Made by a program: the position numbers and the translations under genes. The notes beneath the pieces are model-generated. The model was not told the origin of the DNA. It ran no database searches and worked only from the letters and a program-made list of their open reading frames with translations. A stretch of 27,424 nucleotides of DNA, taken from positions 1 through 27,424 of the forward strand of contig JBKJRA010000073.1 in assembly GCA_046594975.1 (NCBI GenBank). The letters are read 5' to 3'. Source of the DNA: Pyrinomonadaceae bacterium. Its GTDB lineage: Bacteria; Acidobacteriota; Blastocatellia; Pyrinomonadales; Pyrinomonadaceae. Position 1 is the stretch's first letter. Every line of letters starts with the position of its first letter. Below, one piece after another: positions 6,489-27,424 of the stretch.

Positions 6489-7484
6489 ATGCGGATCAGG
6501 AATTTACAGCTTGCGGCAATCGCTCTCACATTTTTATTCGTTACATTTTCTTACGGACAAAATGACATACGAGAAAATGCGATCTCCGGTGCTGGTTGGC
6601 AATGGCCGGCAAACAGCAACGGCATCACCTACATTCCTGTTTGCTGGGAAAATCCTAACGGATATGCCACTGAAACAGCTCTCGTCAAAGACAAGATCCT
6701 ACATACTTGGGCCGCCGTCGCCAACATCAATTTCTACGGCTGGGCTGCCTGCACACCGGCTAGCAAAGGCATCCGTATTCTCGCAACTGATACCCGCTCC
6801 AATTCGGGCATCGGCAAATACATGAACGGATCCGTGAACAGCATGGAGCTTAATTTTACATTCAAAAATTTTTCCCCTAGTTGCCAGGCCGCAAACCGAA
6901 GACCATACTGCATAACCTCTATCGCTGTCCATGAGTTTGGCCACGCACTCGGTCTGATGCACGAACAGGACCGCTCGGATTCGACCTGCAAGACCGAAAG
7001 ATACGCTAGTGGCGGTTGGCTATTGACTGCCTACGATCCGGATTCTGTAATGAATTACTGCAATCCTCGTTGGAACAACGACGGTAATCTTAGTGCATTG
7101 GACGCTCAGGGCATCCAAAAGCTTTATGGTGCGAGAGCGATGCCCACAACCGGCAGGATCGCTGTAACCGACGAATTAAACATCCCGGCTGGCCAAAAAT
7201 GGGAACATATTATTATGCAGATCGGCGGCCCTGCATCGCGGCGCGATTTTGTCTTACAAGACACGATCACGAAACAGACCAATACCTGGAGCTATCCTGA
7301 TGGTGGTAAATATTGCTACAAGATCTGGTCAAACACGCTCTACACCAGCGGCGTATATCGCGACGGCTACGGCGAGGGTTGCTACACACTCGAGCCGGGC
7401 AAAAACTACAATTGGCAGATTGCCTTCAAAAAAGGCACGGGCAGTGCTTTTTTTAATATCGTGTTAGAAGCGGCTAGGAAATAG
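6489..7484 (+). CDS. Secreted zinc metallopeptidase, metzincin/astacin-like (M12), with C-terminal extra domain
   Basis: Signal peptide; HEFGHALGLMHE (HExxHxxGxxH) and YDPDSVMNY Met-turn. Confidence 0.85.
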   Translation: MRIRNLQLAAIALTFLFVTFSYGQNDIRENAISGAGWQWPANSNGITYIPVCWENPNGYATETALVKDKILHTWAAVANINFYGWAACTPASKGIRILATDTRSNSGIGKYMNGSVNSMELNFTFKNFSPSCQAANRRPYCITSIAVHEFGHALGLMHEQDRSDSTCKTERYASGGWLLTAYDPDSVMNYCNPRWNNDGNLSALDAQGIQKLYGARAMPTTGRIAVTDELNIPAGQKWEHIIMQIGGPASRRDFVLQDTITKQTNTWSYPDGGKYCYKIWSNTLYTSGVYRDGYGEGCYTLEPGKNYNWQIAFKKGTGSAFFNIVLEAARK

Positions 7485-8454: not shown

Positions 8455-10068
8455 ATGGGTCGTTTAGCCCACAAGATTGTCGTCAGAATTATTACCGCTT
8501 ATAATCAGGCATTGAGGATAAGTCCTACAATTTTGTCACAAATATCTAATTACAATTTAAGCATTCTGACCGGTATCAGTTTGGTCACAGCCGATTCTCG
8601 TGGCATTCGTACCGACTGCGGACTGATCCTAGATACTCTTAAAAAAGAGCTTGATGTCATATTTGGATTCGTCGGCATCCTACAAACCGAGACTGATAAA
8701 TTCGACATTATCGCAGCGACGGGCCTCGATGCTGCCGATTTTCGCCGCCTAGAGACACGCGCAGGATCGAGTGCCCTTATGCGTGTTTTTGACCTGCGGG
8801 AATCGATTACGTTGCTTGTAAATGACGAGCCTTCGCTCGATTTTCTTTCTAATCCGGCGATCGTCGGCGAGTTGATTTCCGCGCCAATAATACTTTCGCA
8901 GGCATGTGTTGGGTCGATCTCGCTAGCATTTGATAAGACAAAGTTTAAAGACCGCAGCAATGTCATACATTTGCTTGAGATCGTCGCGGCTATGATCGCA
9001 CAATCCTTACGTGCCGAGCGGCTCGAACGCGAAGAAAGCCGCAAGCTTGCCGAAGAAAACACGCATCTCAAGCAGGAGCTCAAAGAAAAATATGATTTCA
9101 GCCATCTGATCGGTAATTCAAGCCCAATGCGGCAAGTTTACGATCAAGTGACCCAGGTCGCCCGTTCAAATGCCACCATTATGATTCGCGGCGAGAGCGG
9201 CACCGGCAAAGAGCTGATCGCGAACGCTATTCACTACAATAGCCTTCGTTCCAAACGACCTTTTATAAAGTTAAACTGTGCCGCCCTGCCCGAGACACTG
9301 ATCAAATCGGAGTTGTTCGGCTACGAGCAGGGTGCATTTACCGGTGCCGCAAAGCGTAAAAAAGGCCGTTTCGAGATGGCCGAAGGTGGAACAATATTCC
9401 TCGACGAGGTTGGCGACCTGCCTCCGCAAACTCAGGTAAAACTGCTTCGCGTGCTTCAGGAGCGTGAGTTCGAACGCCTCGGCGGTACCGAAACTATTAA
9501 GGTAAACGTCCGCCTCATCACCGCGACGAACAAAGATCTGGAGGCATCGATAATCAATAACTCTTTTCGCGAAGACCTTTTTTACCGTCTCAATGTCTTC
9601 ACTATCTTCTTACCGCCCCTTCGCGAGCGCAAAGCTGACATTCTCCAACTCGCCGAGCATTTCATGAAAAAATACGAGGCGGAGCACGGTAAACGCATCC
9701 TGCGAATATCGACGCCGGCGATCGATATGCTGACGGCGTATCATTATCCGGGCAATGTCCGCGAGCTTGAAAACGCTATCGAACATGCTGTGCTCGTCTG
9801 CGATTCCAATGTAATTCACGGGCATCATCTGCCCCCGACGCTGCAGACCGCTGAGGTGAGCGGTACCGAAACTCGCGTCACGCTCGAATCTGCCGTCGCC
9901 GCTTTTGAACGCGATCTGATCCAGGACGCCTTGAAATCGACACGCGGCAACGTAACTAAAGCTGCAAAAATGCTCGATTCGACGGAACGTATCCTCGGCT
10001 ACAAGATAAAAAAGTACGCAATTGATACAATTCGATTTCGGAAATGGAACGCAAAGAATTTCTCATAA
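8455..10068 (+). CDS. GAF-domain sigma54-dependent Fis-family activator (NifA-like architecture)
   Basis: GESGTGKE Walker A, GAFTGA, FLDEVG Walker B, YPGNVREL, C-terminal HTH. True start may be later (e.g. TTG 8533). Confidence 0.9.
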   Translation: MGRLAHKIVVRIITAYNQALRISPTILSQISNYNLSILTGISLVTADSRGIRTDCGLILDTLKKELDVIFGFVGILQTETDKFDIIAATGLDAADFRRLETRAGSSALMRVFDLRESITLLVNDEPSLDFLSNPAIVGELISAPIILSQACVGSISLAFDKTKFKDRSNVIHLLEIVAAMIAQSLRAERLEREESRKLAEENTHLKQELKEKYDFSHLIGNSSPMRQVYDQVTQVARSNATIMIRGESGTGKELIANAIHYNSLRSKRPFIKLNCAALPETLIKSELFGYEQGAFTGAAKRKKGRFEMAEGGTIFLDEVGDLPPQTQVKLLRVLQEREFERLGGTETIKVNVRLITATNKDLEASIINNSFREDLFYRLNVFTIFLPPLRERKADILQLAEHFMKKYEAEHGKRILRISTPAIDMLTAYHYPGNVRELENAIEHAVLVCDSNVIHGHHLPPTLQTAEVSGTETRVTLESAVAAFERDLIQDALKSTRGNVTKAAKMLDSTERILGYKIKKYAIDTIRFRKWNAKNFS

Positions 10069-15284: not shown

Positions 15285-18152
15285 ATGAAAACTAGAATAA
15301 TTCTGTTCGCTGCGACTATCTGTATTGTCTTTGCGCAATTTGCGTTTGCCCAGGACCCACTCAATGAGAAATTTGATTTCTACAACCGGGGCGATTACAA
15401 AGCCAATGTACCGCGTCCGCAGAGCATACTGCACTACGACGTGGGCGATTTTCATACGACCTACGCACAGATGGAAAAAGTGATCGAGTCGATCGCCGCC
15501 GCTTCGCCTGACCGTGTGAAGATAATGGACATCGGACTGACGAACGAGCATCGAATGCAGCATTTGATAGCGATCTCTTCGCCCGAGAATATCGCACGGC
15601 TCGACGACATCAAGGCGAATATCGCTAAGCTCACCGATCCGCGTAAAACCTCTGCCGCTGAGGCGAACACTATTGCACAAAACACACCCGCTATTGCGTG
15701 GATGGCCTACACCATTCACGGCAACGAATCAGCGTCGTTTGAGGCGATGATGCAGGTTATGTATCAGCTCGCCGCGTCTAATGAGCCGACAACGCTCGAA
15801 ATTCTTAAAAACACCGTTGTCCTGCTATTACCCGGCGAAAATCCTGACGGACACGAGAGATTTGTTACGTGGTATAACTCTGTCGCAATAGGCGACGCCA
15901 ACCGCTCCGCCCTCGAACACCGCGAGCCTTGGAGCATTTACGGAAGGCTCTCGCACTATCGTTTTGACCTCAACCGCGACACGCTTGCGATGACGCAGAT
16001 AGAAACGCAGCACATGGCAAAGGCGTTTCAGGAATGGAATCCGCAGGTATCGGCTGACCACCACGGACAGCCTTCGCAGTACTTTTTTCCGCCCGACGCA
16101 CTGCCGATCAATCCTAATCTGCCGCAGCCTGCATTTGGCAAATGGAACGAAATGTACGGTCGTGCCAACGCAAAGGCCTTTGACGCGAACAAGTGGGATT
16201 ACTACGTCCGAGACGTGTTTGACGCTTTCTATCCGGGATATTGGGATATGTACCCGTCGATGAACGGCGCCATAGGTATGACGTTCGAAACGGATGGCGG
16301 CGGCACCAAAGGACTGCGATGGACACGCGATGACGGCACGATCGCCACGCTCCGTTCGGCGATAGCCAAGCACTACACGGCATCTATGACGACGATTGAG
16401 ACGACTGCGAGAAATAAGGTCGAGCGTCTCAAGGATTTCTACGATTTCCGTGCGGGCGGCATGGCAGGTTATGCAGCCGGAAAGATGAAACGCGTCGTAA
16501 TATTGCCGCAAAAAGACCCCGTCAAAGCCGCCGAGCTCATCGAGGTGCTCAACCGTTCTAAGATCGAGGTCAAGGTCGCGGACAGTGCGTTCACCTCCGC
16601 GTCCGCCCACACATACGGCACGGCGAATGCATCCGTCGAGAGCAAAACATTCCCTGCCGGTTCGTATATCGTCGATCTAAACCAGCCGCAGCGGATATTG
16701 ATCAAATCGATCCTCGAACCCGACACACCGCAGGATAAGGCGTTTGTCGATGACAATATGGGCCGATTCAAACGCAACCAGATGAAAGGTGCCGGGCAGT
16801 CGAAAGAAGATTATGGTTTTTATGACATAACTGCTTGGTCGATGCCGCTTGCATTTGGGCTCGATGCGTATTGGACGGAGGACGGCGGTAATGCGTCGGG
16901 CACACTTGCGACCGACGAGACCATCGCCGCAGCAAAACGCGGTACGTATCCGGGTCGCGCCCAGATCGCGTACATTATTCCGTACGTTACCGATACAGCA
17001 AGTGCGATGGTTATGAAGATGCTCCAGGATGGTTTTCGCGTCGCCGTAGCCACAAAAACGCTCAACGCCGCTGGTCGCAACTGGCCGCGCGGCACATTCG
17101 TGGTCCGCGTCACGCGAAACACCGAAGCCCTTCATAACGAGGTCGCAAAACTCGCAATAGATATGGGCATCAATGTCACCGCTGTCAACACCGGATTTGC
17201 CGACGAAGGCGACACCGGCGTCGGCGGCCAGAATGTTATATCGCTGCAAGCCCCAAAGATCGCGATCGTCGCCGACGAAGCGGTCGATCAAACATCTTAC
17301 GGCTCGATCTGGTGGACGCTCGACCGCTACGGCATTAAATTTACGCCAATGACCATACGCTCGATCAAAAGCGGCGGCCTGAAAGATTACAACGTGTTGA
17401 TAATGCCCGACGGTTCGGCGAGCCAGTATATGTCGCTATTTGGCACAGGAGGAGTCTCAAGCCTGAAAGAATCGATATCGGACGGCGGAACGCTTGTCAC
17501 CTCACGCGGAGCGTCCGTTTTTGCGACGCTAAAAGATGTAGGGCTGACAACCTCCAAGCTCGTCGGCAGCGTCGAAGATGAGGAAAAAGGCAAGAAAACG
17601 GATGCTGAGGAAGAGAAAAAACCAACGCCGTCGCCAACGCCTGCGACTTCTGTAAGGCGTGCGGATAATAAAAATATACCGGTCGAGCCAAATCCAAACC
17701 CGTCAAGCGAAGAGCTAAAGTCCGACAAAGCCGATGGCGTCTCACCGAGCCTGCCGCCGATAGCATCGCCTTCGGCGGATGCTAACAAGGTTCCGGTCGC
17801 CCTGCCAGGTTCGATAATGCGTGCAACGGTCGATCGTACAACCTACTTAACCTACGGCCTCGAACAGGACGAACTGCCGGTTTTGCTCGCAAGCGGTTTC
17901 TTCTTCCGCTATTCAAAGGAAGGCTCGAACGCCATCGTCTTTGACGCGAAACCTCGGAGACCTCTAACGCTGTCGGGCTTTGTATGGGCAGGCAATACCG
18001 AAAGATTACTGTCCGGCACGGCTTACGTTATAGACGAACCGCGCGGTTCAGGCCACACGATCCTCTTTGCCGAGGAACCATTTTTTCGCGGCATCTTTAG
18101 ATCGAACACACGGCTGTTCTTTAATTCGATACTATTCAACGGAGTGTTCTAA
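15285..18152 (+). CDS. Secreted M14-family zinc carboxypeptidase-like protein
   Basis: Signal peptide; IHGNE, NPDG, DLNRD and DHHG motifs; long C-terminal region. Confidence 0.85.
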   Translation: MKTRIILFAATICIVFAQFAFAQDPLNEKFDFYNRGDYKANVPRPQSILHYDVGDFHTTYAQMEKVIESIAAASPDRVKIMDIGLTNEHRMQHLIAISSPENIARLDDIKANIAKLTDPRKTSAAEANTIAQNTPAIAWMAYTIHGNESASFEAMMQVMYQLAASNEPTTLEILKNTVVLLLPGENPDGHERFVTWYNSVAIGDANRSALEHREPWSIYGRLSHYRFDLNRDTLAMTQIETQHMAKAFQEWNPQVSADHHGQPSQYFFPPDALPINPNLPQPAFGKWNEMYGRANAKAFDANKWDYYVRDVFDAFYPGYWDMYPSMNGAIGMTFETDGGGTKGLRWTRDDGTIATLRSAIAKHYTASMTTIETTARNKVERLKDFYDFRAGGMAGYAAGKMKRVVILPQKDPVKAAELIEVLNRSKIEVKVADSAFTSASAHTYGTANASVESKTFPAGSYIVDLNQPQRILIKSILEPDTPQDKAFVDDNMGRFKRNQMKGAGQSKEDYGFYDITAWSMPLAFGLDAYWTEDGGNASGTLATDETIAAAKRGTYPGRAQIAYIIPYVTDTASAMVMKMLQDGFRVAVATKTLNAAGRNWPRGTFVVRVTRNTEALHNEVAKLAIDMGINVTAVNTGFADEGDTGVGGQNVISLQAPKIAIVADEAVDQTSYGSIWWTLDRYGIKFTPMTIRSIKSGGLKDYNVLIMPDGSASQYMSLFGTGGVSSLKESISDGGTLVTSRGASVFATLKDVGLTTSKLVGSVEDEEKGKKTDAEEEKKPTPSPTPATSVRRADNKNIPVEPNPNPSSEELKSDKADGVSPSLPPIASPSADANKVPVALPGSIMRATVDRTTYLTYGLEQDELPVLLASGFFFRYSKEGSNAIVFDAKPRRPLTLSGFVWAGNTERLLSGTAYVIDEPRGSGHTILFAEEPFFRGIFRSNTRLFFNSILFNGVF

Positions 18153-18724: not shown

Positions 18725-19474
18725 TTAGGTTATCGCTCCGCCGTCGACGATGACGACTTCACCGCTCATAAAGCTGTTGCGGTCGCTGGTCATGAAGGCG
18801 GCGTATTCGGCTAGTTCTTCCGGGCGGCCGAGACGGCCTTTGGAGACCCAAAAATCGTGCATTTGTAGCAGGCGTTCAGGCAGGGTGTTGCCGAGATCCG
18901 TGTCGAAAATGCCGGCGGCAATGGCATTAACAGTTATGCCGAAATTAGCGGCTTCGCGTGAGAGGCACTTAGTAAAACCGATCATCGCTGCTTTTGAGGT
19001 AGCGTAATGCACAGATGTGGGCAGGCTCCGCATCGCTCCAACCGAGGTGATATTAAGTATCGAGCCCGCGCGTTCGCGGATCATTTGTTTATAAAAAGGT
19101 TTGGTGACGGCAAACAGGCTGCCGACATTGGTATCGACAACGTAGTCCCAGCTTTTATCGGTAGTCGTTGCGAAATTGTCGGGTTTATTGACCGCCGCAT
19201 TATTGACCAGAACATTGATCGACCCCCATGCATCCTTGATCTCGCGGGCGATGTGTTTCATACCGACGCGGTCGGTAACGGAAACTTTGAATGCGAGAGC
19301 ACGGCGGCCGTGAGCCTCGATCTTTCGTTTTATTTCCTCGGCGAGGTCGTCACGCGAGTGATAATTGAACGCCACATCTGCACCCTCACGGGCAAAGACT
19401 TCGCAGATAGCGGCTCCGATGCCACGCGTTCCACCCGACACAAAAGCACGTTTTCCTTCAAGTAAAAGACTCAA
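18725..19474 (-). CDS. SDR family oxidoreductase (FabG-like)
   Basis: SGGTRGIG, VNNA and YATSK motifs; TTG start with GGAG RBS. Confidence 0.92.
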   Translation of the reverse strand: MSLLLEGKRAFVSGGTRGIGAAICEVFAREGADVAFNYHSRDDLAEEIKRKIEAHGRRALAFKVSVTDRVGMKHIAREIKDAWGSINVLVNNAAVNKPDNFATTTDKSWDYVVDTNVGSLFAVTKPFYKQMIRERAGSILNITSVGAMRSLPTSVHYATSKAAMIGFTKCLSREAANFGITVNAIAAGIFDTDLGNTLPERLLQMHDFWVSKGRLGRPEELAEYAAFMTSDRNSFMSGEVVIVDGGAIT

Positions 19475-19562
19475 GCTAATTTCTCCAGCAGTGAATAAAA
19501 CACTAATTGAAAGGTTAATTAAATCGCGGTGTCATGACAAGTCGCGCTATCTAAAATAGTTT

Positions 19563-20738
19563 TTAGACAGGCGGTGCGGCGGCCTGTGCCTTTGGCCAAA
19601 GGGCATTGATCTCGTTGATGATATATTCAGTCGAATTTGGCATTGTCATCCCAATGGTCGCGGCTTTCATTCGCGAGTACTGACCGTTATCAGCGATAAG
19701 ATTCTGGATGGTGGGGACAATATCGATGGAGCGTTTGAGCAAAATGCCTGCACCGCGCCGTTCGATAAGATGCGAAGTTCCAGCTTCCTGCGGCATCGGC
19801 GGTGTCGTCAAGTCTGCAATGATCGGCAATCTACATGCTAATGCTTCGAATGTCGTCAATCCGCCAAGTTTTGAGATCATCACGTTGGCTGATTGCATAA
19901 CTTTTTCGATCTCGTCGGAATAGCCAATGACCTTGATCGGAAATTTGGCGGTCTTGGCGAGACGCTCGGCTTCGAGCCGAAGTTCTTCGTTTTTACCCGC
20001 GAGAAAGATCGCCTGAACGTCAAATTCACCGCGGACAAACTCTTTGAAGATCTTAGGAATATTGCCACCGCCGATCCAACCTGCATTAACGAACACCGTA
20101 AATTTGTCAGGGTCGAGTCCATAAACCCGACGGGCGTTTTGAGCGTCCTGCTCATCGATCTCGTGAAATTTCGGATCGACCGGCATACCCGATATCTTGA
20201 TCCGCTCGGGCGATATACCGTAATCGACGAGTTGACGCTCGGCATCCTCATTTGCCACCAGGTAAAGTGATACATCATCACACGCCCAGCCTTTCCAAAA
20301 CCCGTAACATGGATCAGTTACAACAGTTACAAGTGGAACCTTATCTATCAGATTAAGTTCGCGAAGGATGCGTGCAAAGATATGCTGCGTCAGAGGATGC
20401 ACGCTAACGACGATATGCGGACACCATTTTTCAAATTGACCCCGAACATACCCAATGCAGCGTTTGTGAAAAAACTCACGAGTCTCAGGGCGTATTTTAT
20501 TCATCGCCCAATAGAGATATTTCATCCAATGCTGCTTGTGTTGCAGCGTCCAGTTATATAGATTGACGAGCTTTTCTGTAACGTGATGCGAATCCTCAAC
20601 CGCCTTTATCGTCCGGACCGCCGCAGACTCGCCTTTCCAAAATTTCTCTAATCCATCGGCGATCGTTTTAGCCGCAGAGCGGTGCCCGCCACCGGTATCG
20701 GAGGAAATTATTAGAATTTTTGGAGTATTGGGCTGCAT
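19563..20738 (-). CDS. MGDG synthase / UgtP-like diacylglycerol glycosyltransferase (GT28-like)
   Basis: SSDTGGGHRSAA, PLVTVVTD, GMPVDPKF and SKLGGLTTFEA motifs. Confidence 0.85.
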   Translation of the reverse strand: MQPNTPKILIISSDTGGGHRSAAKTIADGLEKFWKGESAAVRTIKAVEDSHHVTEKLVNLYNWTLQHKQHWMKYLYWAMNKIRPETREFFHKRCIGYVRGQFEKWCPHIVVSVHPLTQHIFARILRELNLIDKVPLVTVVTDPCYGFWKGWACDDVSLYLVANEDAERQLVDYGISPERIKISGMPVDPKFHEIDEQDAQNARRVYGLDPDKFTVFVNAGWIGGGNIPKIFKEFVRGEFDVQAIFLAGKNEELRLEAERLAKTAKFPIKVIGYSDEIEKVMQSANVMISKLGGLTTFEALACRLPIIADLTTPPMPQEAGTSHLIERRGAGILLKRSIDIVPTIQNLIADNGQYSRMKAATIGMTMPNSTEYIINEINALWPKAQAAAPPV

Positions 20739-20747
20739 TGAAATAGA

Positions 20748-20978
20748 ATTTGGTGTGGTGGGATTTCAACCCACATGCCGTGCTTTCGCTCACAATTTTT
20801 CGGATTTAGTCACCAGCGTATCAGTATTAATGTCTTCGCCGGATCGTGAGCCAAGTCCCCTAAAGAGCGGTCCGGTATAGCTCCGGTAGGCAATGCATCC
20901 TCTTGCGCATGCTGACTTCATATCAGGCATCTCTGCCCACCACTCACTCATGCGGTTCGCACCCGCTGCACACCAAAT
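20748..20978 (-). ncRNA. Unclassified 231-nt structured RNA-like element
   Basis: Perfect 10-bp terminal pairing ATTTGGTGTG/CACACCAAAT; hairpins GCGG-GTGCGAA-CCGC, GGCA-GAGA-TGCC and GTGGG-TTGAAAT-CCCAC; 9-bp helix GCTCACGAT/ATTGTGAGC whose G-U pair exists only on the minus strand. Confidence 0.55.
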
Positions 20979-20980
20979 AT

Positions 20981-22141
20981 TTATGCCTTTAACGCAACTT
21001 CCTTAGCCGCGAGAAAGCTAGCATTTTTTGCGGCTTTCTTCATTTGCCCCTCGAGTTTGATGATATTTATCAAATGCCCGGGATTTAGAGGCAATGACGG
21101 GTAGAAACAGTTTGACTCGTGTGTACAGTAACAGCCATCTGCGACCTCTTTACGGCGCTCTTTCATTAGGTTGGTTTTCCAAGCGGCCTGAAAATCCCAT
21201 TCGTAATCGCGTAAATTGAGCACGTCGGTCTTGTTTTCGCATGACGAAAGGGCACCGTTGTCGTATATCACGGCACCTGCCGAGCCGGCGTAACATTTGA
21301 GCTGCGCCTTGCCTTCTTCCTTAGTTTTGGCAATGATATCGTGCATGTAAATATCGACCGCCGCCTTAAAAAAGCCCGAATTACCGCCGTAATTATTTTT
21401 GAGAGTTGCGTCTTTAGTATCCTCCAGGATCATCTGAGATAACTGCTGATAACGCTTGTGGTCAAACTGCAATTCGATCGGATCGGCCGACGGCGGGCGA
21501 ATATAGTTGATGTTCACCTTATCCGGTTTGAGGTCATATTTTAGAAAATCGTACCAGTCAAAGATCGTGTCCTCGTTTGAGTGCATCACGCATGTACAGG
21601 TTTGAATGTCGAGCCGCGGATATTGCTCTTTTTTCATCTGCTGTAAGGTCCGGGCCGTATGGATAGCTTTGTCCCAGCTCCCCTCTTTGCGGCGGATCTT
21701 TTCATGAGCGTCTTTCATACCGTCGATGCCGAGCGCAACGCTGACGTTTAGATTCGGGCATTCGTCCATTATCTGAGCTACATCCGGGAAAATTCGCGGA
21801 TGGATCTGGCCGTTTGACATCAGATACACCGAATCGAGTTTGTTGTTTTCGTAGAATGCACGGACGATCTGCGGCAGGTCCTTTCGCGTAAACGGCTCAC
21901 CTCCGGCGAGCACGAGCACACCGAGATTACCGCCAAGCGTTTCTGAGATCTTCGCGATCTCGTCGGTCTTCATCTGCAGCTTTTTACGCGGCCTGTCGTC
22001 CAATTCTTCAGTAAAAAAGCAGTGCGTGCAGCGCATGTCGCAGACGCTTGTCACCAAAATATTCAAAAACACAGGCGAGATCGGTCGTCCGACCAAAATG
22101 CCTGCGTATCTCTTAAAGATCTCTTTTGTTGCAAAATCCAT
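20981..22141 (-). CDS. Radical SAM protein with C-terminal SPASM/twitch-like cysteines
   Basis: CDMRCTHC (CxxxCxxC), GGEPF, CYAG...SSCE...GCYCTHE. Confidence 0.9.
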   Translation of the reverse strand: MDFATKEIFKRYAGILVGRPISPVFLNILVTSVCDMRCTHCFFTEELDDRPRKKLQMKTDEIAKISETLGGNLGVLVLAGGEPFTRKDLPQIVRAFYENNKLDSVYLMSNGQIHPRIFPDVAQIMDECPNLNVSVALGIDGMKDAHEKIRRKEGSWDKAIHTARTLQQMKKEQYPRLDIQTCTCVMHSNEDTIFDWYDFLKYDLKPDKVNINYIRPPSADPIELQFDHKRYQQLSQMILEDTKDATLKNNYGGNSGFFKAAVDIYMHDIIAKTKEEGKAQLKCYAGSAGAVIYDNGALSSCENKTDVLNLRDYEWDFQAAWKTNLMKERRKEVADGCYCTHESNCFYPSLPLNPGHLINIIKLEGQMKKAAKNASFLAAKEVALKA

Positions 22142-22436: not shown

Positions 22437-23615
22437 ATGTTTCGTCGTATTTATCTTGATAATAGTGCAACCACGCCCGTCGATCCTTTGGTCGTTGAGG
22501 CGATGCTTCCTTATTTGATGGGCAAATACGGAAACGCGTCAAGCATTCATTTTTTCGGTCAGGAAGCCCGTGCCGCCATCGACAAGGCCCGTCATCAGGT
22601 AGCAGCTCTGATAAATGCACGTCCGAATGAGGTCGTATTTACTTCAGGTGGTACCGAGTCTAATAATCTCGCGATCCGCGGACTTGTCGAATCGAATAAT
22701 AAATACGGCAGGCACATAATCACATCTGCGATCGAGCATTCTGCCGTGCTTAACGTCTGCCAAGATCTCGAAAAGCAGGGATATACAGTCACTTATCTGC
22801 CCGTGTATGAAAACGGCATTATTAGAACTGATGATCTAAGAGCTGCGGTAAAAGAAGATACGATCCTACTCTCAGTTATGACTGCAAATAATGAGATCGG
22901 CACGATCCAGCCGGTGGGTGAGATCGGGCATCTTGTAAAAGATCTGCGTGCTGACGGTAAAAAAATCTGGTTTCATACCGATGCAGTTCAAGCCGCAGGA
23001 AAAATGCCGCTCGATGTCGAAGATATTGGCTGCGATCTTTTGTCTATTTCAGCCCATAAAATATACGCACCGAAAGGCGTTGGAGCGTTGTACGTTCGCC
23101 GAGGCGTGCGGCTGCATTCGCAAAATATCGGTGGCCATCAGGAACGTGAGCTTCGAGGCGGCACGGAGTCCGTGCCCAACATAGTCGCTTTTGGTAAAGC
23201 CGCAGAAATGGCACAGCAAGATCTGGCCAATGCCTCAAAATCGTTGAAAGCGATGCGCGACGAATTTGAAAACAAGGTCGGCGAGGCGATTCCCGATATT
23301 GTTTTCAATGGCGAACGCGAACAACGCCTTCCTAATATCTCAAACATATCTTTTCGAGCTGTCGAGGGGGAGGGACTCTTGATCAATCTCGATATGCAGG
23401 GCGTTGCCGTTTCGACCGGTTCTGCCTGCTCGTCCGGATCGCTCGAACCGTCTCCAGTCATCCGAGCCCTCGGCCGCGACGACGAACTAGCTCGCGGTGC
23501 GATCCGCTTTAGTTTTGGCCGTTATAATATTGCCGGAGACATTGAGCATGTGTTGAGCGTCCTCCCCGCTGCTGTCGAAAACCTCCGAAGTTTGTCGCCT
23601 TTGCATCGAAAATAA
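22437..23615 (+). CDS. iscS: Cysteine desulfurase (IscS/NifS group I)
   Basis: YLDNSATTP, HTDAVQA, HKIYAPKG (PLP lysine) and STGSACSS (catalytic Cys) motifs. Confidence 0.9.
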   Translation: MFRRIYLDNSATTPVDPLVVEAMLPYLMGKYGNASSIHFFGQEARAAIDKARHQVAALINARPNEVVFTSGGTESNNLAIRGLVESNNKYGRHIITSAIEHSAVLNVCQDLEKQGYTVTYLPVYENGIIRTDDLRAAVKEDTILLSVMTANNEIGTIQPVGEIGHLVKDLRADGKKIWFHTDAVQAAGKMPLDVEDIGCDLLSISAHKIYAPKGVGALYVRRGVRLHSQNIGGHQERELRGGTESVPNIVAFGKAAEMAQQDLANASKSLKAMRDEFENKVGEAIPDIVFNGEREQRLPNISNISFRAVEGEGLLINLDMQGVAVSTGSACSSGSLEPSPVIRALGRDDELARGAIRFSFGRYNIAGDIEHVLSVLPAAVENLRSLSPLHRK

Positions 23616-23649
23616 AAAAAACGGCCTATCAATTTAATGACAGAGCCGT
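23614..23649 (-). terminator. Intrinsic terminator of the small peptide-precursor gene
   Basis: Minus strand ACGGC(T)CTGTCA-TTAAAT-TGATAG-GCCGT followed by a T-run. Confidence 0.75.
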
Positions 23650-23685
23650 CTTCTGTTATCTCCCGGTGTGGAAAGTCGGTGTTAA

Positions 23686-23928
23686 CTAGTCGCTGATAAG
23701 TATGCCCACTTTCGATGTGTCGGCACATGTCGGAGTTTTTTCGCCGATGATGACGTATCCGAAGATGATGATGCCGGTTTTGCCAAAGATGATGATGCCG
23801 TCATTTTTGGTTTCGGTCTGAGTGCAAGGTGTTGCAACGACATCACTGATGAGGATACCGGCGTTTGCGAAAGTTGCTCCGAAGGTCATTACGAGGGCGA
23901 GGGTTAAAGTTGCTATTGTCTTTTTCAT
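23686..23928 (-). CDS. 80-aa secreted protein with repeated short hydrophobic cores (candidate peptide precursor)
   Basis: AGGAG RBS 6 nt upstream, signal peptide ending ANA, GILISD x2, GIIIFG x2, own terminator. Confidence 0.88.
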   Translation of the reverse strand: MKKTIATLTLALVMTFGATFANAGILISDVVATPCTQTETKNDGIIIFGKTGIIIFGYVIIGEKTPTCADTSKVGILISD

Positions 23929-23987
23929 TTTTTTCTCCTAAAGTTTTTTTGTTTTGCGAGCACAATTGCTTCGCTCTGCCCTCTCTA

Positions 23988-24016
23988 TTACAACCAGCGT
24001 GCCAAAGCGTGCCAAA
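23988..24016 (-). promoter_or_regulatory. sigma54-like -24/-12 promoter with a duplicated -24 element
   Basis: Minus strand TTTGGCACGC TTTGGCACGC TGGTTGTAA; TGGCACG-N4-TTGT is one mismatch from TGGCACG-N4-TTGC. Confidence 0.5.
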
Positions 24017-24314
24017 GATTAACACAATTCCATAAACAATGTATTTGCAACATTTACAGACGTTTATATTGCTCACAAATGCTTATTCTGTTTTGTGGAA
24101 TATTTGTATACCTTGTAACCAATCCTCGGCGACGTTTCTCCTAAGATGTTTCTTTCCAGTCATTTACCGAATTGAATACTTTCTATACATTCTTAGTGTG
24201 GATAATCGGTATACACCTTTGCTTTAGTTACGCGGATTTTTATAGCTTTTTAGACGTTAAACGTGTTAAACTTCAAATAATGGGTGTATAGCCCTCACAC
24301 ATCCCAATACTGCC

Positions 24315-26582
24315 GTGTCAACAGTCTCGCCGTTTGCCCCCGATATGGACCGTGAAACCCTCTCAAAAAATGCCAAAGGCATGATAATCGCCGCCGGGGC
24401 AATTTGTTTTGTGTTGGCGTGCGCCGGCATGTTTAGCCCCCGTCTGAATATTGGATTTATTTTGGTTTTGGCATTCTCCGTTATCGTTGCTCCGCGCATG
24501 AGCCTCGCACTTCCGCACTCCAGATTTGCGATCAGCTTTTCAGATGCGGCTGTATTTCTGACCTTTTTGCTTTACGGTGGGCCGGCAGCTATCGTTGTCG
24601 CCGCCCTTGAGGCTCTCGCAAGCTGTCTTTACCTGCGTTCTAAAGGATATACATTCACGCGATTAATGATCCCGACTAATATCTCGATCAATGTCGTCTC
24701 GATAACGATGACCTATTTGGTGTGGCTAAGTGTGCCGCAAGCTCCTTTTATTACGCCCGATGTCGGCACCACTCAACATTTGATCGCGACAGTTGGCAGC
24801 CTCGCAATAGTTCAGTTCGTGGGTGGATCTATCATTACCTCAATATTTCTTAGCCTTCGTGATGGTTCGAGCCCGTGGGTTATTTGGAAACGAGACTGCT
24901 TTTCGAGTTCAATGACGCAGATCGTCGGAGCCGGACTCGCGGGAATGATCTTTAAGCTCATTAATTTTGGAGATCTAGTCACGGGTATTATCGCTTTTGC
25001 GGCATTGGCTATCGCATATTTGAGTTATCGCCAGTCACTAAAAGAAGCTAACAACGCGATGGGGCAGGCCGAATCAGCCGAACGTGAGCGTGCAGAGGTC
25101 GAACGCGCTCGCCGACGGGAGGCTGAAAAACATGCAGAGCAACTGACATTTTCTCTTCAAAAAGAAGAGCTTGCTAACAAAGCCCTACGCAAAAGCGAAA
25201 AGGACCTGCAGCACGCAGCTCTATTCGATTCGTTGACAAATCTGCCAAACCGCAAGCAATTCGGAGACATACTTGGAAAGCTGATCGACAAGTACAAGGA
25301 CGATCCTTCTCTCAATTTTCACGTGTTGTTTCTCGATATATGTAAATTCAAAAATATCAACGACAGTCTTGGTCACACACTGGGCGACAAAGTACTGATG
25401 ATTGCCGCAAAGCGTTTTGTGAGAATGCTCAATACATCAGATATGGTCGCTCGTATCGGCGGAGACGAATTTGCGATCATCCTTAAGGATCTGAAAACCG
25501 TCGGCAAGGCCCAAAAAGTAGCTCGCCGTATTCTCGATAATATTGCTCAACCTTTCTCATTGAGCAGTAATCGCATCTCGATCAGCGTAAACGTGGGCAT
25601 TGCTCCATGCGACGCCGAATACAACACGCCCGAGGAAGTACTTCGCGACGCGGATATCGCGATGCATTACGCCAAAGAGAAAAGCCTCGGGGTAGCAGTA
25701 TTTACGAAAGAGTTACGCGTACGCTTTCTTGAACGCGTACATTACGAAAACGACCTACGGAATGCTATCGACCGCAATGAGTTGTCGATGCATTATCAGC
25801 CGCTTGTTGACTTACGGGACGGTCATTTGATGGGTGTCGAGGCTCTGTTGCGATGGCATCACAGCGAATTTGGAAATATCCCGCCAAATAAATTCATCCC
25901 CATCGCCGAAGAATCCGGGCTAATTATTCCGATCACTGTGTGGATACTAAAGGAAACAACCATGCAGTTAGCCAGGTGGCAAAAGATCGGAACCGCTCAC
26001 AAAAACCTAGTAGTTAGTGTAAATATCTCCGGCAAGCATCTGTCTAATGACGACCTGATCGACGATGTCGAAAATGCTCTCGCAATATCCGGGCTTGCCC
26101 CGCAACATCTCAAGCTCGAGATCACCGAAAGCTCCGCGATGGAAAATGCCGAGCATACGATAAACATGCTCAACCGTTTGAAACAACTCGGCGTCCAGCT
26201 TAGCATCGATGATTTCGGCACCGGCTATTCCAGTCTCAGTTATTTACATCGTCTGCCGTTCGACACGCTTAAGATCGACCGCTCATTCGTTTACAGCGTC
26301 GGCGAAAGCGGAGAAAATTCTGAAATACTGCAAACTATCATCTCACTCGCCAAAAGCCTGAAAAAGAAAGTCATCGCCGAAGGCATCGAAACCGAATCGC
26401 AGCTTTCTCTGCTGCAAAACCTCGGTTGCGACTACGGTCAGGGCTATCTGATGTCGCGTCCGCAAACCCGCGAAAATTTAGAGACCGCTCTCTACGAGGG
26501 CCGCAACTGGTTACCAGTCCAGATCGAAGATACGATTATCTGTGACCACGTCGAAGTTGAGGAAGCTCTACCAGTTTTCTAG
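24315..26582 (+). CDS. Membrane-bound GGDEF-EAL protein (diguanylate cyclase / phosphodiesterase) with multi-TM sensor
   Basis: About 7-8 hydrophobic segments, a coiled coil, FDSLTNLPNR, GGDEF, EAL and DDFGTGYSS intact; RxxD I-site absent (NTSD). Start GTG 24315 or ATG 24345. Confidence 0.93.
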   Translation: MSTVSPFAPDMDRETLSKNAKGMIIAAGAICFVLACAGMFSPRLNIGFILVLAFSVIVAPRMSLALPHSRFAISFSDAAVFLTFLLYGGPAAIVVAALEALASCLYLRSKGYTFTRLMIPTNISINVVSITMTYLVWLSVPQAPFITPDVGTTQHLIATVGSLAIVQFVGGSIITSIFLSLRDGSSPWVIWKRDCFSSSMTQIVGAGLAGMIFKLINFGDLVTGIIAFAALAIAYLSYRQSLKEANNAMGQAESAERERAEVERARRREAEKHAEQLTFSLQKEELANKALRKSEKDLQHAALFDSLTNLPNRKQFGDILGKLIDKYKDDPSLNFHVLFLDICKFKNINDSLGHTLGDKVLMIAAKRFVRMLNTSDMVARIGGDEFAIILKDLKTVGKAQKVARRILDNIAQPFSLSSNRISISVNVGIAPCDAEYNTPEEVLRDADIAMHYAKEKSLGVAVFTKELRVRFLERVHYENDLRNAIDRNELSMHYQPLVDLRDGHLMGVEALLRWHHSEFGNIPPNKFIPIAEESGLIIPITVWILKETTMQLARWQKIGTAHKNLVVSVNISGKHLSNDDLIDDVENALAISGLAPQHLKLEITESSAMENAEHTINMLNRLKQLGVQLSIDDFGTGYSSLSYLHRLPFDTLKIDRSFVYSVGESGENSEILQTIISLAKSLKKKVIAEGIETESQLSLLQNLGCDYGQGYLMSRPQTRENLETALYEGRNWLPVQIEDTIICDHVEVEEALPVF

Positions 26583-26655: not shown

Positions 26656-27424
26656 ATGTTCAAGAAGTCATTTTTGTTTCTTATAGTATGTGCATTTTTA
26701 GCGTTGAGCGTCCCGGCTCAGAAATTTGATTATCCGAAACCCCGTCGTGGCGATCAGGTTGATGATTATCACGGAGTAAAGGTTGCGGACCCGTATCGCT
26801 GGATGGAGGACGTTGATTCCGCTGAAACAAAGGCTTGGATCGACGCAGAGAACAAGTTAACTAACTCATACCTTTCAACCATCCCTCAGCGTGAAGCATT
26901 AAAGGCCCGCCTAACGGAATTAACAAACTACGAAAAGATATCGGCACCGTCAAAGATCGCTGAGGGCTTTTACCTCTATTCGAAAAACGACGGCCTGCAA
27001 AATCAGAGCGTGCTTTATAAAGCGACCTCGATCAATGATCCGGGAGCCGTTTTCTTTGACCCGAACAAGATCCTCGCCGACGGCACCGCTGCATTGAGCG
27101 GCTCAAATTTTACCGACGACGGCAAATTATGGGCTTATGGCGTTGCAATTGCAGGCAGCGACCGAACCGAATGGCACGTGATGGATGTCGCGACCGGCAA
27201 ACTGCTGTCCGACACGCTCGCACCTAACCGCCAAGGCGTAAACGCCTGGCTCAAGGACAACTCAGGCTTTTACTACACCGGCTATGCCCCGACGGAAAAG
27301 GGGGCTGAGCTAAAGGCTGCGACGAAATTTCAAAAAGTGTTTTTTCATAAATTAGGAACGCCGCAATCGGCTGACTACGTCGTTTATGAGCGTCCCGATA
27401 ACGGTGACTACTTTAGCGGCGTTG
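26656..27424 (+). CDS. Secreted prolyl oligopeptidase (S9A), 5' part only
   Basis: Manual translation from ATG 26656: MFKKSFLFLIVCAFLALSVPAQKFDYPKPRRGDQVDDYHGVKVADPYRWMED, the classic S9A N-terminus; open to the window end. Not in the ORF track. Confidence 0.92.
   Translation, partial: MFKKSFLFLIVCAFLALSVPAQKFDYPKPRRGDQVDDYHGVKVADPYRWMEDVDSAETKAWIDAENKLTNSYLSTIPQREALKARLTELTNYEKISAPSKIAEGFYLYSKNDGLQNQSVLYKATSINDPGAVFFDPNKILADGTAALSGSNFTDDGKLWAYGVAIAGSDRTEWHVMDVATGKLLSDTLAPNRQGVNAWLKDNSGFYYTGYAPTEKGAELKAATKFQKVFFHKLGTPQSADYVVYERPDNGDYFSGV

What the first reader, a model, noticed from the sequence alone, without database searches (positions are those of the whole stretch)
23686..23928. Multi-core secreted peptide precursor (GILISD x2, GIIIFG x2): candidate new signalling peptide or RiPP
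Seen: after a signal peptide ending ANA, the mature chain starts with GILISD and the protein ends with GILISD. The two copies differ at 5 of 6 codons, all synonymously (GGT ATC CTC ATC AGT GAT vs GGC ATA CTT ATC AGC GAC), so the peptide, not the DNA, is conserved. Between them lie GIIIFG twice and a YVIIG variant, flanked by two Cys (C35, C68). Three cores are preceded by K-x(1-2). The gene has its own RBS, promoter and terminator. Established: Phr/PapR, AimP and SHP signals are short peptides cut from small secreted precursors. Inference: this precursor releases several G-I-[IL]-I-x-[DG] peptides that act as extracellular signals.
Basis: partly seen in the sequence, partly recalled or inferred. 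Interest (0 to 1): 0.85.

Follow-up and report, generated by a model that had tools for sequence, protein, structure and literature searches.

The report
Hexapeptide-repeat peptide beside c-di-GMP sensor
A small exported protein built from near-identical six-residue hydrophobic units is conserved in one family of soil Acidobacteria next to a membrane-embedded c-di-GMP enzyme; it is probably that sensor's input signal, which would be the first ligand proposed for this type of sensor domain.

Summary
The ORF at 23686-23928 (-) is a real gene. It has a Shine-Dalgarno site, a terminator and a conserved sigma-54-type promoter, not a sigma-70 one.

It belongs to an unnamed family of more than 110 sequence clusters, found in only one acidobacterial family. 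The layout is stereotyped: signal peptide, one unit, Cys, 2-4 units, Cys, 1-2 units. Units within a protein are identical in 53% of pairs, against 3% between proteins, yet their codons are nearly randomised. Selection therefore acts on the peptide.

The gene lies beside one clade of polytopic (MASE9-like by fold) GGDEF-EAL proteins. New here: the same G-h-h-h-x-D units form perfect tandem arrays of 4-15 copies at the C-termini of secreted S8 subtilases in these genomes. Those genes also carry sigma-54 promoters, and sister clades of the same receptor follow them.

Best reading (about 0.45): the protein supplies a hydrophobic hexapeptide ligand sensed in the membrane by the adjacent receptor. 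Release of free peptides is unproven (about 0.3).

Main rival: an intact structural or self-assembling beta-repeat module. This rests on the conserved Cys pair and the borderline Hexapep match of the S8 tails.

RiPP is not supported.

The parts
23686..23928 (-). Gene for the 80-aa exported hexapeptide-repeat protein (stop codon 23686-23688)
   Evidence: Homologues. Single copy in its own genome.
23860..23928 (-). Sec-type signal peptide, residues 1-23, ending A-N-A. It is the most conserved part of the family.
   Evidence: Alignment A1 has invariant K2, T19, A21, N22, A23, G24 and I25. AF2 predicts a helix at 2-22. The cleavage site is inferred from the -3/-1 rule; no predictor was run.
23842..23859 (-). 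Outer unit 1, GILISD, the predicted mature N-terminus
   Evidence: In 126 of 150 family proteins a unit starts within 2 residues of the predicted cleavage site.
23824..23826 (-). Cys35, the first of the conserved Cys pair
   Evidence: 118 of 126 family proteins have exactly two Cys bracketing the inner units.
23743..23799 (-). Inner units: GIIIFG (23782-23799), spacer KT, GIIIFG (23758-23775), and the degenerate YVIIG (23743-23757)
   Evidence: A 2-residue spacer is the commonest in the family (157 cases).
23725..23727 (-). Cys68, the second of the conserved Cys pair
23689..23706 (-). Outer unit 2, GILISD, the exact C-terminus
   Evidence: 112 of 126 family proteins end exactly with a full unit.
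23934..23939 (-). Shine-Dalgarno AGGAGA, 5 nt before the ATG
   Evidence: Read. GGAG-type sites stand at the same place in the other loci.
23989..24004 (-). Sigma-54-type promoter, TGGCACG-N4-TTGTA, 61-76 nt before the ATG. A second TGGCACG half-copy lies 10 nt further upstream.
   Evidence: It is the only match in the 27.4-kb window, where about 0.16 would be expected. The same element lies 63-110 nt upstream in 44 of 46 loci from many genera.
23608..23663 (-). Intrinsic terminator hairpin followed by a U run. It also faces the convergent nifS-like gene.
   Evidence: -27.5 kcal/mol, z -5.35, and 0 of 200 shuffles fold as well.
24315..26582 (+). Divergent partner gene: a 755-aa polytopic membrane protein with a coiled coil and intact GGDEF and EAL domains. 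The sensor part is roughly 24315-25050.
   Evidence: Pfam finds GGDEF and EAL and nothing for residues 1-262. The AF2 model has pLDDT 80. Its fold resembles MASE9-domain proteins (TM 0.65, E 2e-8). Adjacency to the peptide gene is conserved across genera and is clade-specific.

Best explanation
The gene encodes a Sec-exported carrier of several copies of a short hydrophobic unit, G-[ILV]-[ILV]-[ILV]-x-[DG]. I propose that this unit is the input signal of the adjacent GGDEF-EAL protein. That protein's only sensory part is a membrane-embedded, MASE9-like domain with very short periplasmic loops. Transcription comes from a sigma-54 promoter, so it needs an activator protein. After export and signal-peptide cleavage, the units are most likely freed by periplasmic or secreted proteases; the co-regulated S8 subtilases are candidates, and they carry arrays of the same kind of unit. 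The freed units would partition into the membrane, bind the sensor domain and shift c-di-GMP synthesis or breakdown.

Shown: the gene, its family, peptide-level selection on the units, the promoter, and the clade-specific pairing with the receptor. Inferred: binding. Only conjectured: proteolytic release (about 0.3 overall) and action between cells.
For: 1. Peptide-level selection. Units within a protein are identical in 53% of pairs against 3% between proteins. Identical units still differ at 46% of codons, where 57-65% is expected for independent codon choice; the ratio for the window gene is 1.07.

2. The unit is a defined entity. 112 of 126 proteins end exactly on a unit, and the mature N-terminus starts on one.

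3. Some members are too small to fold. Members of 39-52 aa without Cys sit at the same place beside the receptor. AF2 finds no fold for the mature chain.

4. Pairing with the receptor. Adjacency holds across many genera and in three different arrangements: divergent, upstream and downstream. All 30 receptors next to small peptides form one clade with 100/99 support. The 29 receptors next to S8 genes with unit arrays form the other side of the tree.

5. A recurring module. 27 of 41 such S8 genes in the genus have a receptor paralogue within about 2.2 kb downstream on the same strand. The same holds in other genera and in one other family.

6. Ligand and receptor conservation run together. S8 arrays are aa-identical with scrambled codons: 603 pairs, 10 of them DNA-identical. 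The receptor clade whose partner unit is conserved (GVL[VI]GD) has a more conserved sensor domain than the clade whose partner varies: 54% against 45% identity, higher in 58 of 66 species pairs.

7. Shared regulation. Sigma-54 promoters precede both the peptide genes and the S8 genes.

8. The sensor domain. The literature proposes that MASE9 binds its unknown ligand within the membrane (bioRxiv 10.1101/2021.11.05.467447). The fold has a distant likeness to ECF S-components, which bind small ligands.
Against: No direct evidence of processing, binding or export across the outer membrane exists.

The Cys pair conserved in 118 of 126 proteins has no role in a simple cut-and-release model.

Residues flanking the units are heterogeneous: T, D or E before, and R, K, A, F or L after. 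No single cleavage rule is apparent.

The S8-tail version of the unit scores 26.7 bits against Pfam Hexapep, whose cut-off is 27. It may therefore simply be a beta-helix domain.

Genome G020 keeps an intact peptide gene but has lost the receptor of this clade. Some genomes have a close homologue of the window's receptor sensor domain (clade not checked) but no peptide gene was found next to it. In a few genera the two genes are unlinked.

The direct co-variation test was inconclusive: partial Mantel r 0.24, p 0.06, n 16.

Adjacency within one bacterial family is partly inherited synteny, and related genomes are not independent samples.
Confidence: 0.45

Rival explanations
1. The protein is a structural or self-assembling repeat module that acts intact. 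The hexapeptide units would be beta-strands, forming a left-handed beta-helix-like or cross-beta/amyloid-like assembly. The small protein would be a stand-alone version of the C-terminal tail of the S8 subtilases, for example a matrix, surface-active, anchoring or docking element. Its adjacency to GGDEF-EAL genes would reflect c-di-GMP control of a secreted protease and matrix programme, not ligand sensing.
For: The GVLVGD x9 tail of the genome's own S8 gene matches Pfam Hexapep at E 4e-6, 26.7 bits against a cut-off of 27, and weakly matches an LbH domain. Read as V-G-D-G-V-L, the unit fits the hexapeptide-repeat consensus (my own knowledge). The conserved Cys pair and the fixed order unit-Cys-units-Cys-unit suggest that the intact chain matters. 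Runs of Ile/Val flanked by Gly are typical steric-zipper segments (my own knowledge). In-register stacking would reward identical units. G020 keeps the peptide gene without the receptor.
Against: In the small proteins the units are out of hexad register. The spacer is 2 residues in 157 cases and 0 in only 4, and long linkers vary from 5 to 33 residues. The number of inner units varies from 2 to 4, which is incompatible with one fixed disulfide-closed sheet topology. Members of 39-52 aa without Cys exist. Some species have Pro inside the unit, such as GIYPIG and GIVPVG. AF2 gives no fold (pLDDT 51). Pfam Hexapep does not match the small protein even at E 10. Natural beta-helix domains do not need perfectly identical repeats. 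No amyloid secretion or nucleator genes are nearby.
Confidence: 0.3
2. The intact mature protein is a periplasmic modulator of the receptor, in the manner of YfiR acting on YfiN. The 57-residue disulfide-looped protein would stay in the periplasm and present its hydrophobic units to the membrane sensor. Redox state or proteolysis of the loop would serve as the actual cue, with no diffusible peptide.
For: A Sec signal alone places the protein in the periplasm of a diderm cell. The conserved Cys pair fits periplasmic disulfide formation and redox sensitivity. The gene pairing and the clade-specific association hold as for the best explanation. A periplasmic prolyl oligopeptidase with its own signal peptide lies just downstream of the receptor in at least 22 genomes, and Pro often precedes the Cys.
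Against: The receptor's periplasmic loops are very short, so there is little surface for a protein partner. The minimal Cys-free members and the S8-fused arrays do not fit a folded modulator. The complex prediction gave no answer, which is not evidence either way.
Confidence: 0.15
3. The protein is a RiPP precursor whose cores are modified by neighbouring enzymes (the radical SAM protein at 20981-22141, the NifS-like enzyme, the prolyl oligopeptidase).
For: A radical SAM/SPASM-like gene, a cysteine desulfurase and a prolyl oligopeptidase lie within 3 kb. Multi-core precursors are known among RiPPs (my own knowledge).
Against: The N-terminus is a classical Sec signal, not a leader. The radical SAM gene heads a separate operon with a glycosyltransferase and a reductase, and it matches no peptide-maturase model above cut-off (best 64.9 bits against 425). 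In many genera the peptide gene lacks nifS next to it but keeps the receptor. The oligopeptidase is also found in genomes without the peptide: 104 of 151 genomes have it.
Confidence: 0.03

Closest known systems
Multi-copy secreted pheromone precursors (yeast prepro-alpha-factor; Bacillus Phr precursors with repeated pentapeptides)
   Same: They have a Sec signal followed by several identical copies of a short mature peptide separated by spacers. Identity is kept at the peptide level. Basic residues often flank the copies here too: K or R lies 2 residues before about 29% of units and directly after about 36%. Phr peptides are cut out by secreted S8 subtilases (my own knowledge), and S8 subtilases are the other carriers of these units here.
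   Different: The organism is a diderm acidobacterium. There is no RRNPP receptor, no regular dibasic site, and a conserved Cys pair. The putative receptor is a membrane GGDEF-EAL enzyme. Processing is unproven.
SHP/Rgg short hydrophobic peptides and enterococcal sex pheromones
   Same: They are very hydrophobic Ile/Val/Leu-rich peptides of 6-8 residues, often ending in Gly or starting with Asp. The peptide gene lies next to the receptor gene and is often divergent from it.
   Different: Those precursors are about 20-25 aa with a single copy, are exported by PptAB and cut by Eep, and are sensed in the cytoplasm by Rgg or PrgX after Opp import. None of these components lies next to this gene.
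AgrD/AgrC- and ComC/ComD-type systems (peptide sensed by a polytopic membrane domain)
   Same: The peptide gene neighbours a receptor whose sensor is a multi-helix membrane domain. Peptide variants are species-specific and the sensor is fast-evolving.
   Different: The output here is c-di-GMP turnover, not a histidine kinase. The sensor fold is MASE9-like. The precursor is multi-copy and Sec-dependent.
YfiR-YfiN (TpbB) and NspS-MbaA: periplasmic partners controlling membrane GGDEF(-EAL) enzymes
   Same: A small exported protein is encoded next to a membrane c-di-GMP enzyme and controls it from the periplasm. YfiR is sensitive to its disulfides.
   Different: Those receptors have sizeable periplasmic domains and those partners are folded proteins. 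Here the loops are minimal and the partner is a repeat peptide without a predicted fold.
Bacterial transferase hexapeptide repeat (left-handed beta-helix, Pfam PF00132)
   Same: The period is six residues, with an aliphatic residue followed by Gly/Asp-Gly. The S8 tail arrays reach 26.7 bits against a cut-off of 27.
   Different: The small protein does not match the model. Its units are separated by 2-residue spacers and long linkers. The units are perfectly identical and hydrophobic on both faces, which is unusual for soluble beta-helices.
Chaplins and other small secreted amyloid-forming proteins
   Same: They have a signal peptide and a mature hydrophobic protein of about 50 aa, often with one conserved Cys pair.
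   Different: There is no sequence relation, no rodlin or curli-type accessory genes, and the gene is tied to a signalling enzyme.

Membership tests
RRNPP-type signals (Phr, PapR, NprX, AimP) | Small secreted precursor with an N-terminal export signal | tested here: met
   n-, h- and c-regions with A-N-A, conserved across the family.
RRNPP-type signals (Phr, PapR, NprX, AimP) | Cognate cytoplasmic TPR receptor (Rap, PlcR, NprR or AimR) encoded next to the peptide gene | tested here: not met
   The neighbours are a NifS-like enzyme and a GGDEF-EAL membrane protein. No TPR or HTH receptor is in the window.
RRNPP-type signals (Phr, PapR, NprX, AimP) | Mature peptide of 5-10 residues cut from the C-terminal part and re-imported by Opp | not testable with these tools
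   This needs peptidomics and genetics.
SHP/Rgg | Unprocessed precursor of about 20-25 aa without a Sec signal, with an adjacent Rgg regulator | tested here: not met
   The precursor is 80 aa with a Sec-type signal, and there is no Rgg.
RiPP precursor | Leader peptide plus a co-conserved modifying enzyme in the same cluster | tested here: not met
   The N-terminus is a Sec signal. The radical SAM neighbour scores far below every maturase cut-off and is not kept next to the peptide in other genera.
Hexapeptide-repeat / left-handed beta-helix (PF00132) | Match to the Pfam model at or above the gathering score | tested here: not met
   The small protein gives no hit at E up to 10. The related S8 tail reaches 26.7 bits against a cut-off of 27.
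Hexapeptide-repeat / left-handed beta-helix (PF00132) | Contiguous units in hexad register (18 residues per turn) | tested here: not met
   Spacers are 2 residues in 157 cases and 0 in 4; the others are 5-33. The feature is met by the S8 tails.
MASE9 sensor domain (for the partner receptor) | Match to the sequence model | tested here: not met
   Pfam gives no relevant hit for residues 1-262 at E up to 10.
MASE9 sensor domain (for the partner receptor) | Polytopic fold with an intramembrane hairpin, short loops, and fusion to c-di-GMP output domains | tested here: inconclusive
   The AF2 model (pLDDT 80) resembles MASE9-named AFDB clusters (TM 0.65 and 0.53, E 2e-8 and 1e-4). It has a short helix pair at 77-109 and the description fits. 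Both structures are predictions.
Functional amyloid systems (curli, Fap, chaplins) | Dedicated nucleator or secretion genes nearby, or sequence relation to CsgA, FapC or the chaplin domain | tested here: not met
   There is no Pfam or NCBIfam match, and the neighbours are unrelated. Fibre formation itself cannot be tested here.

The most novel reading that the evidence does not exclude
One acidobacterial family runs a set of parallel 'polyprotein pheromone' circuits. Sigma-54-driven secreted carriers hold 4-15 identical copies of a hydrophobic hexapeptide. The carriers are either a small stand-alone precursor or the tail of an S8 subtilase that may cut itself. The hexapeptides are released and read inside the membrane by a dedicated clade of MASE9-like GGDEF-EAL enzymes, with one hexapeptide 'dialect' per receptor clade. 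This would be peptide signalling in a diderm phylum where none is known. It would couple directly to c-di-GMP, and it would be the first ligand class for a MASE-type domain.
Probability: 0.3. Interest if true: 0.92.

Novelty: new variant of a known kind. Interest (0 to 1): 0.8.

Why it matters
Ligands of the membrane-embedded MASE sensor domains are unknown. Peptide signalling is essentially undescribed in Acidobacteriota, and it is rare in diderm bacteria generally. This locus, with its two or three sister modules per genome, gives a concrete and cheap experiment: add synthetic hexapeptides to a cloned receptor and read out c-di-GMP. If the units prove structural instead, the perfectly identical, codon-scrambled hexapeptide arrays on secreted subtilases are still an undescribed repeat domain under unusually strict selection. 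Either way, a conserved sigma-54 regulon linking secreted proteases, a repeat peptide and c-di-GMP enzymes has been defined in a widespread soil lineage.

Tried and rejected
Complex prediction. Sensor domain residues 1-262 were folded with the mature peptide. The result was 'no answer', score 0.00, and the controls were not run. This is not evidence either way.

AF2 of the peptide with 39 homologues found no fold beyond the signal helix.

The ESM Atlas feature search gave only weak generic 'secreted protein' clusters, score 0.80.

Pfam and NCBIfam gave nothing for the peptide.

The Rfam search found no riboswitch. In particular there is no c-di-GMP riboswitch in the intergenic region. The two snoRNA-like sub-threshold hits lie antisense within the ORF and look like chance.

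The sigma-70 promoter scan found none.

Expression could not be checked. No RNA run was listed, and only soil, sediment and aquatic DNA runs hold the locus.

The co-variation test of units against the sensor domain, controlling for NifS distance, gave r 0.24, p 0.06, n 16, which is inconclusive.

Literature searches for the motifs and for a peptide/c-di-GMP link in this family found nothing relevant.

Readings rejected:
- Ile-rich attenuator leader peptide. The gene has a signal peptide and its own terminator, and no downstream gene follows on that strand.
- RiPP (see rivals).
- Recent gene conversion or slippage as the cause of unit identity. The codons are scrambled.
- My interim assumption that the receptor next to the S8 gene in genus g28 is the orthologue of the window's receptor. 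The tree places it on the S8-linked side.

Full report
**Observation.**
- It has a Sec-type N-terminus ending A-N-A.
- GILISD is the first six residues after that site and also the last six residues of the protein.
- GIIIFG occurs twice, separated by KT, followed by a degenerate YVIIG. Cys sits at residues 35 and 68.
- The two GILISD copies differ at 5 of 6 codons and the two GIIIFG copies at 2 of 6, all silently.
- AGGAGA lies 5 nt before the ATG.
- A strong hairpin with a U run follows the stop (-27.5 kcal/mol, z -5.35).
- No sigma-70 consensus promoter was found.
- A sigma-54-type element, TGGCACG-N4-TTGTA, lies at 23989-24004 (-). It is the only such match in the window.

**The family.**
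- Neither Pfam nor NCBIfam names the protein. It is nevertheless not an orphan.
- A word-indexed search found 47 relatives. An exhaustive HMMER search found 115 representative clusters at E below 0.001. Two of these are spurious long repeat proteins and the rest are 60-170 aa.
- The gene is single-copy in its own incomplete genome.
- It is present in 19 of 24 genomes sampled from the same genus, and in about a third of genera of the same family (19 of 60 at E up to 0.01, a few of them weak).
- It was not found in 373 genomes of about 96 other families of the phylum.
- One source names a member's host 'Pyrinomonadaceae bacterium'. The family assignment is an inference from that name.
- The signal peptide is the best-conserved part: K2, T19, A21, N22, A23, G24 and I25 are invariant in A1.

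**Anatomy across 126 scorable members**.
- 112 end exactly on a full unit.
- 118 have exactly two Cys.
- The order is fixed: one (rarely 2-3) unit, Cys, 2-4 units, Cys, 1-2 units. In 110 of 118 proteins, units occupy all three compartments.
- The commonest spacer is 2 residues (157 cases). Zero spacers are rare (4). The Cys-bearing linkers vary in length and sequence.
- There are 107 different hexamers.
- Two units from one protein are identical in 53% of pairs. Two units from different proteins are identical in 3%.
- Each species has its own unit: GIIVAG, GIIVSD, GIIILG, GIIIAK, GIIIDN, GIIING, GILITD, and even GIYPIG and GIVPVG.
- In 36 of 110 proteins, including the window's, the inner units differ from the outer ones.

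**Selection, not gene conversion.** Among 242 pairs of aa-identical units in 45 genes, 46% of codons differ and only 15 pairs are DNA-identical. Independent codon draws would give 57-65%. The median observed/expected ratio per gene is 0.8, and for the window gene it is 1.07. Identity is therefore maintained on the peptide. A minority of genes show partial recent homogenisation.

**No fold.** AF2 with 39 homologues gives pLDDT 51, and only the signal helix is confident. The profile missed some divergent members that lie beside a close homologue of the window's receptor sensor domain (clade not checked). These are only 39-52 aa and have no Cys, for example two or three copies of a 6-7-residue unit after a signal peptide. 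They are too small to be folded proteins.

**The partner.**
- The divergent gene at 24315-26582 encodes a 755-aa protein with intact GGDEF and EAL domains. Its 260-residue N-terminal polytopic region has no Pfam match.
- An AF2 model of that region (26 homologues, pLDDT 80) most resembles AFDB clusters named MASE9, and other GGDEF, HD-GYP and MCP N-termini (TM 0.65, E 2e-8). It resembles ECF-transporter S components more distantly.
- MASE9 was defined as a membrane sensor with an intramembrane hairpin and an unknown ligand, proposed to bind within the membrane (bioRxiv 10.1101/2021.11.05.467447). I call the domain MASE9-like, because membership by sequence was not met.
- The peptide gene lies next to this receptor in most loci of the genus and in many other genera. 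The arrangement is usually divergent, but in one genus the peptide gene is upstream and co-directional, and in one genome it is downstream.
- The NifS-like gene on the other side is often not conserved.
- Exceptions exist. G020 keeps the peptide gene but has lost this receptor. In a few genera the two genes sit on different contigs. Some genomes have the receptor with no adjacent peptide gene found.

**A wider system (new here).**
- In one genus the gene upstream of such a receptor is an 881-aa secreted S8 subtilase. Its C-terminus is a spacer-free run of the same kind of unit.
- Such subtilases turned out to be general in the family, with 2-3 per genome. Their tails carry 4-15 units and end in a conserved GD[ND]TxxM.
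- The window's own genome has one with GVLVGD x9 (contig C329). It has another with GILMSD plus GILISD x5 (contig C91). GILISD is the same hexamer as the window peptide's outer unit; given the small sequence space, this may be coincidence.
- In 25 tails, 603 pairs of aa-identical units include only 10 DNA-identical pairs, and 57% of codons differ against 63% expected.
- A DNA pattern for four tandem units is present in 26 of 27 sampled genomes of the family, in 1 of 2 genomes of one sister family, and in 3 of about 370 other genomes of the phylum. The reversed control pattern matched nowhere.
- 27 of 41 such S8 genes in the genus are followed within about 2.2 kb, on the same strand, by a paralogue of the MASE9-like GGDEF-EAL. 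Most of the rest lie at contig ends or are the first of two tandem S8 genes.
- The same adjacency is seen in other genera (coordinates), in a genome of another family in reversed order, and with a PAS-type GGDEF-EAL in a soil MAG.

**Receptor tree and conservation.**
- A maximum-likelihood tree of 59 sensor domains splits cleanly. All 30 receptors next to small peptides form one clade (100/99). All 29 next to S8 arrays form the other side, with sub-clades that each go with one type of array: GVL[VI]GD, or G[ILM]L[VI][SG]D.
- For the same 12 species, the sensor domain is more conserved in the clade whose partner unit is conserved (54%) than in the peptide-linked clade whose units vary (45%). 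It is higher in 58 of 66 pairs. These pairs are not independent.

**Regulation.** TGGCACG-N4-TTG[TA]A lies 63-110 nt upstream of the start codon in 44 of 46 peptide loci from many genera. The same element stands before six of eight S8-array genes examined. Both carriers therefore belong to sigma-54-dependent, activator-controlled transcription. A sigma-54 activator gene is in the window at 8455-10068, beside glnE, but nothing links it specifically to this promoter.

**Interpretation.** The robust result is a module repeated three or more times per genome: a sigma-54-driven secreted protein carrying identical G-h-h-h-x-D/G units, plus a dedicated clade of membrane-sensor GGDEF-EAL. I think the units are the receptor's input.

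Arguments that they act as released peptides:
- The unit is kept strictly identical at the peptide level.
- The units sit exactly at both mature termini.
- The minimal members are too small to fold, and no fold is predicted.
- The units are fused to a protease in the sister modules.
- A free unit is about 600 Da, small enough to pass porins, whereas a 57-residue chain would stay in the periplasm (my inference).

Arguments against release:
- The Cys pair is conserved.
- The flanking residues are heterogeneous.
- The S8 tails give a borderline Hexapep match.
- The peptide gene survives without the receptor in G020.

I put the ligand-receptor relation at about 0.45 and free-hexapeptide signalling at about 0.3. 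An intact structural or self-assembling module gets about 0.3, an intact periplasmic modulator about 0.15, and a RiPP about 0.03.

**Limits.**
- All evidence is comparative or predicted.
- Many genomes are fragmented MAGs, and related genomes are not independent.
- The signal-peptide cleavage site is inferred by rule.
- Unpublished genomes: G057 (locus L033) is one of the 46 loci in the promoter count, one of the 45 genes in the codon count and one of the 30 rows in the peptide-linked receptor clade. G183 (locus L059) is one of the loci where no adjacent peptide gene was seen. G072, G150 and G168 appear only in tallies.

Noticed in passing
Own genome outside the window: G000:C329 (L084:1336-3948) and G000:C91 (L088:1261-3291): Two secreted S8 subtilases end in perfect tandem hexapeptide arrays: GVLVGD x9, and GILMSD plus GILISD x5. 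The units are aa-identical but their codons are scrambled. The first gene is followed by a GNAT gene and then a paralogue of the window's receptor. The second has no receptor gene beside it, yet it carries the same hexamer as the window peptide's outer unit.
   Followed up: yes
window 24005-24018 (-): A second TGGCACG half-site lies 10 nt upstream of the sigma-54-type -24 element, making a direct repeat CTTTGGCACG x2. A comparable duplication is seen in L007 and L008 only. It could be a regulator site or a duplicated -24 box.
   Followed up: partly
window 26656-27423 (+), runs off the window: A prolyl oligopeptidase (S9) with its own signal peptide starts 74 nt after the receptor gene. This receptor-oligopeptidase pair is kept in at least 22 genomes of several genera, including genomes where no peptide gene was found. 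The enzyme is also present in many genomes without the receptor. It may be a processing enzyme or only conserved synteny.
   Followed up: partly
L007 (G020:C3): This genome of the same genus keeps an intact peptide gene (GIIVSD x6) directly beside the oligopeptidase gene. It has lost the receptor of the peptide-linked clade; only paralogues at 24-28% identity remain.
   Followed up: partly
L053, L055, L058, L061, L066 (other genera): These are minimal, Cys-free relatives of 39-74 aa beside a close homologue of the window's receptor sensor domain (clade not checked), missed by the family profile. One has a 16-residue mature chain made of two copies of an 8-residue unit. Another begins and ends with the same ADIIQP.
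   Followed up: partly
window 8455-10068 (+): A sigma-54 enhancer-binding protein (AAA+ and HTH_8 domains, with an unannotated 217-residue N-terminus) lies directly upstream of glnE. It shows that the genome uses sigma-54 activators. No specific link to the peptide promoter was found.
   Followed up: no
window 18725-22141 (-): A radical SAM/SPASM-like gene, an MGDG-synthase-like glycosyltransferase and a short-chain reductase form one co-directional set. This looks like lipid or glycolipid chemistry, not peptide maturation.
   Followed up: no
window 15285-18152 (+) and 6489-7484 (+): A 955-aa M14 zinc carboxypeptidase and a small metzincin-like protein are also encoded in the window. Neither was tested for co-occurrence with the peptide gene.
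   Followed up: no
G111:C7:4887-5824; G067:C22; G118:C1 (L038-L040): Some genera carry two or three tandem copies of the small peptide gene. In L040 the two copies encode the same units.
   Followed up: no
window 23743-23789 (+): Sub-threshold Rfam matches to archaeal C/D-box snoRNAs (21.5 bits against a cut-off of 38) lie antisense within the peptide ORF. They are most likely chance.
   Followed up: yes
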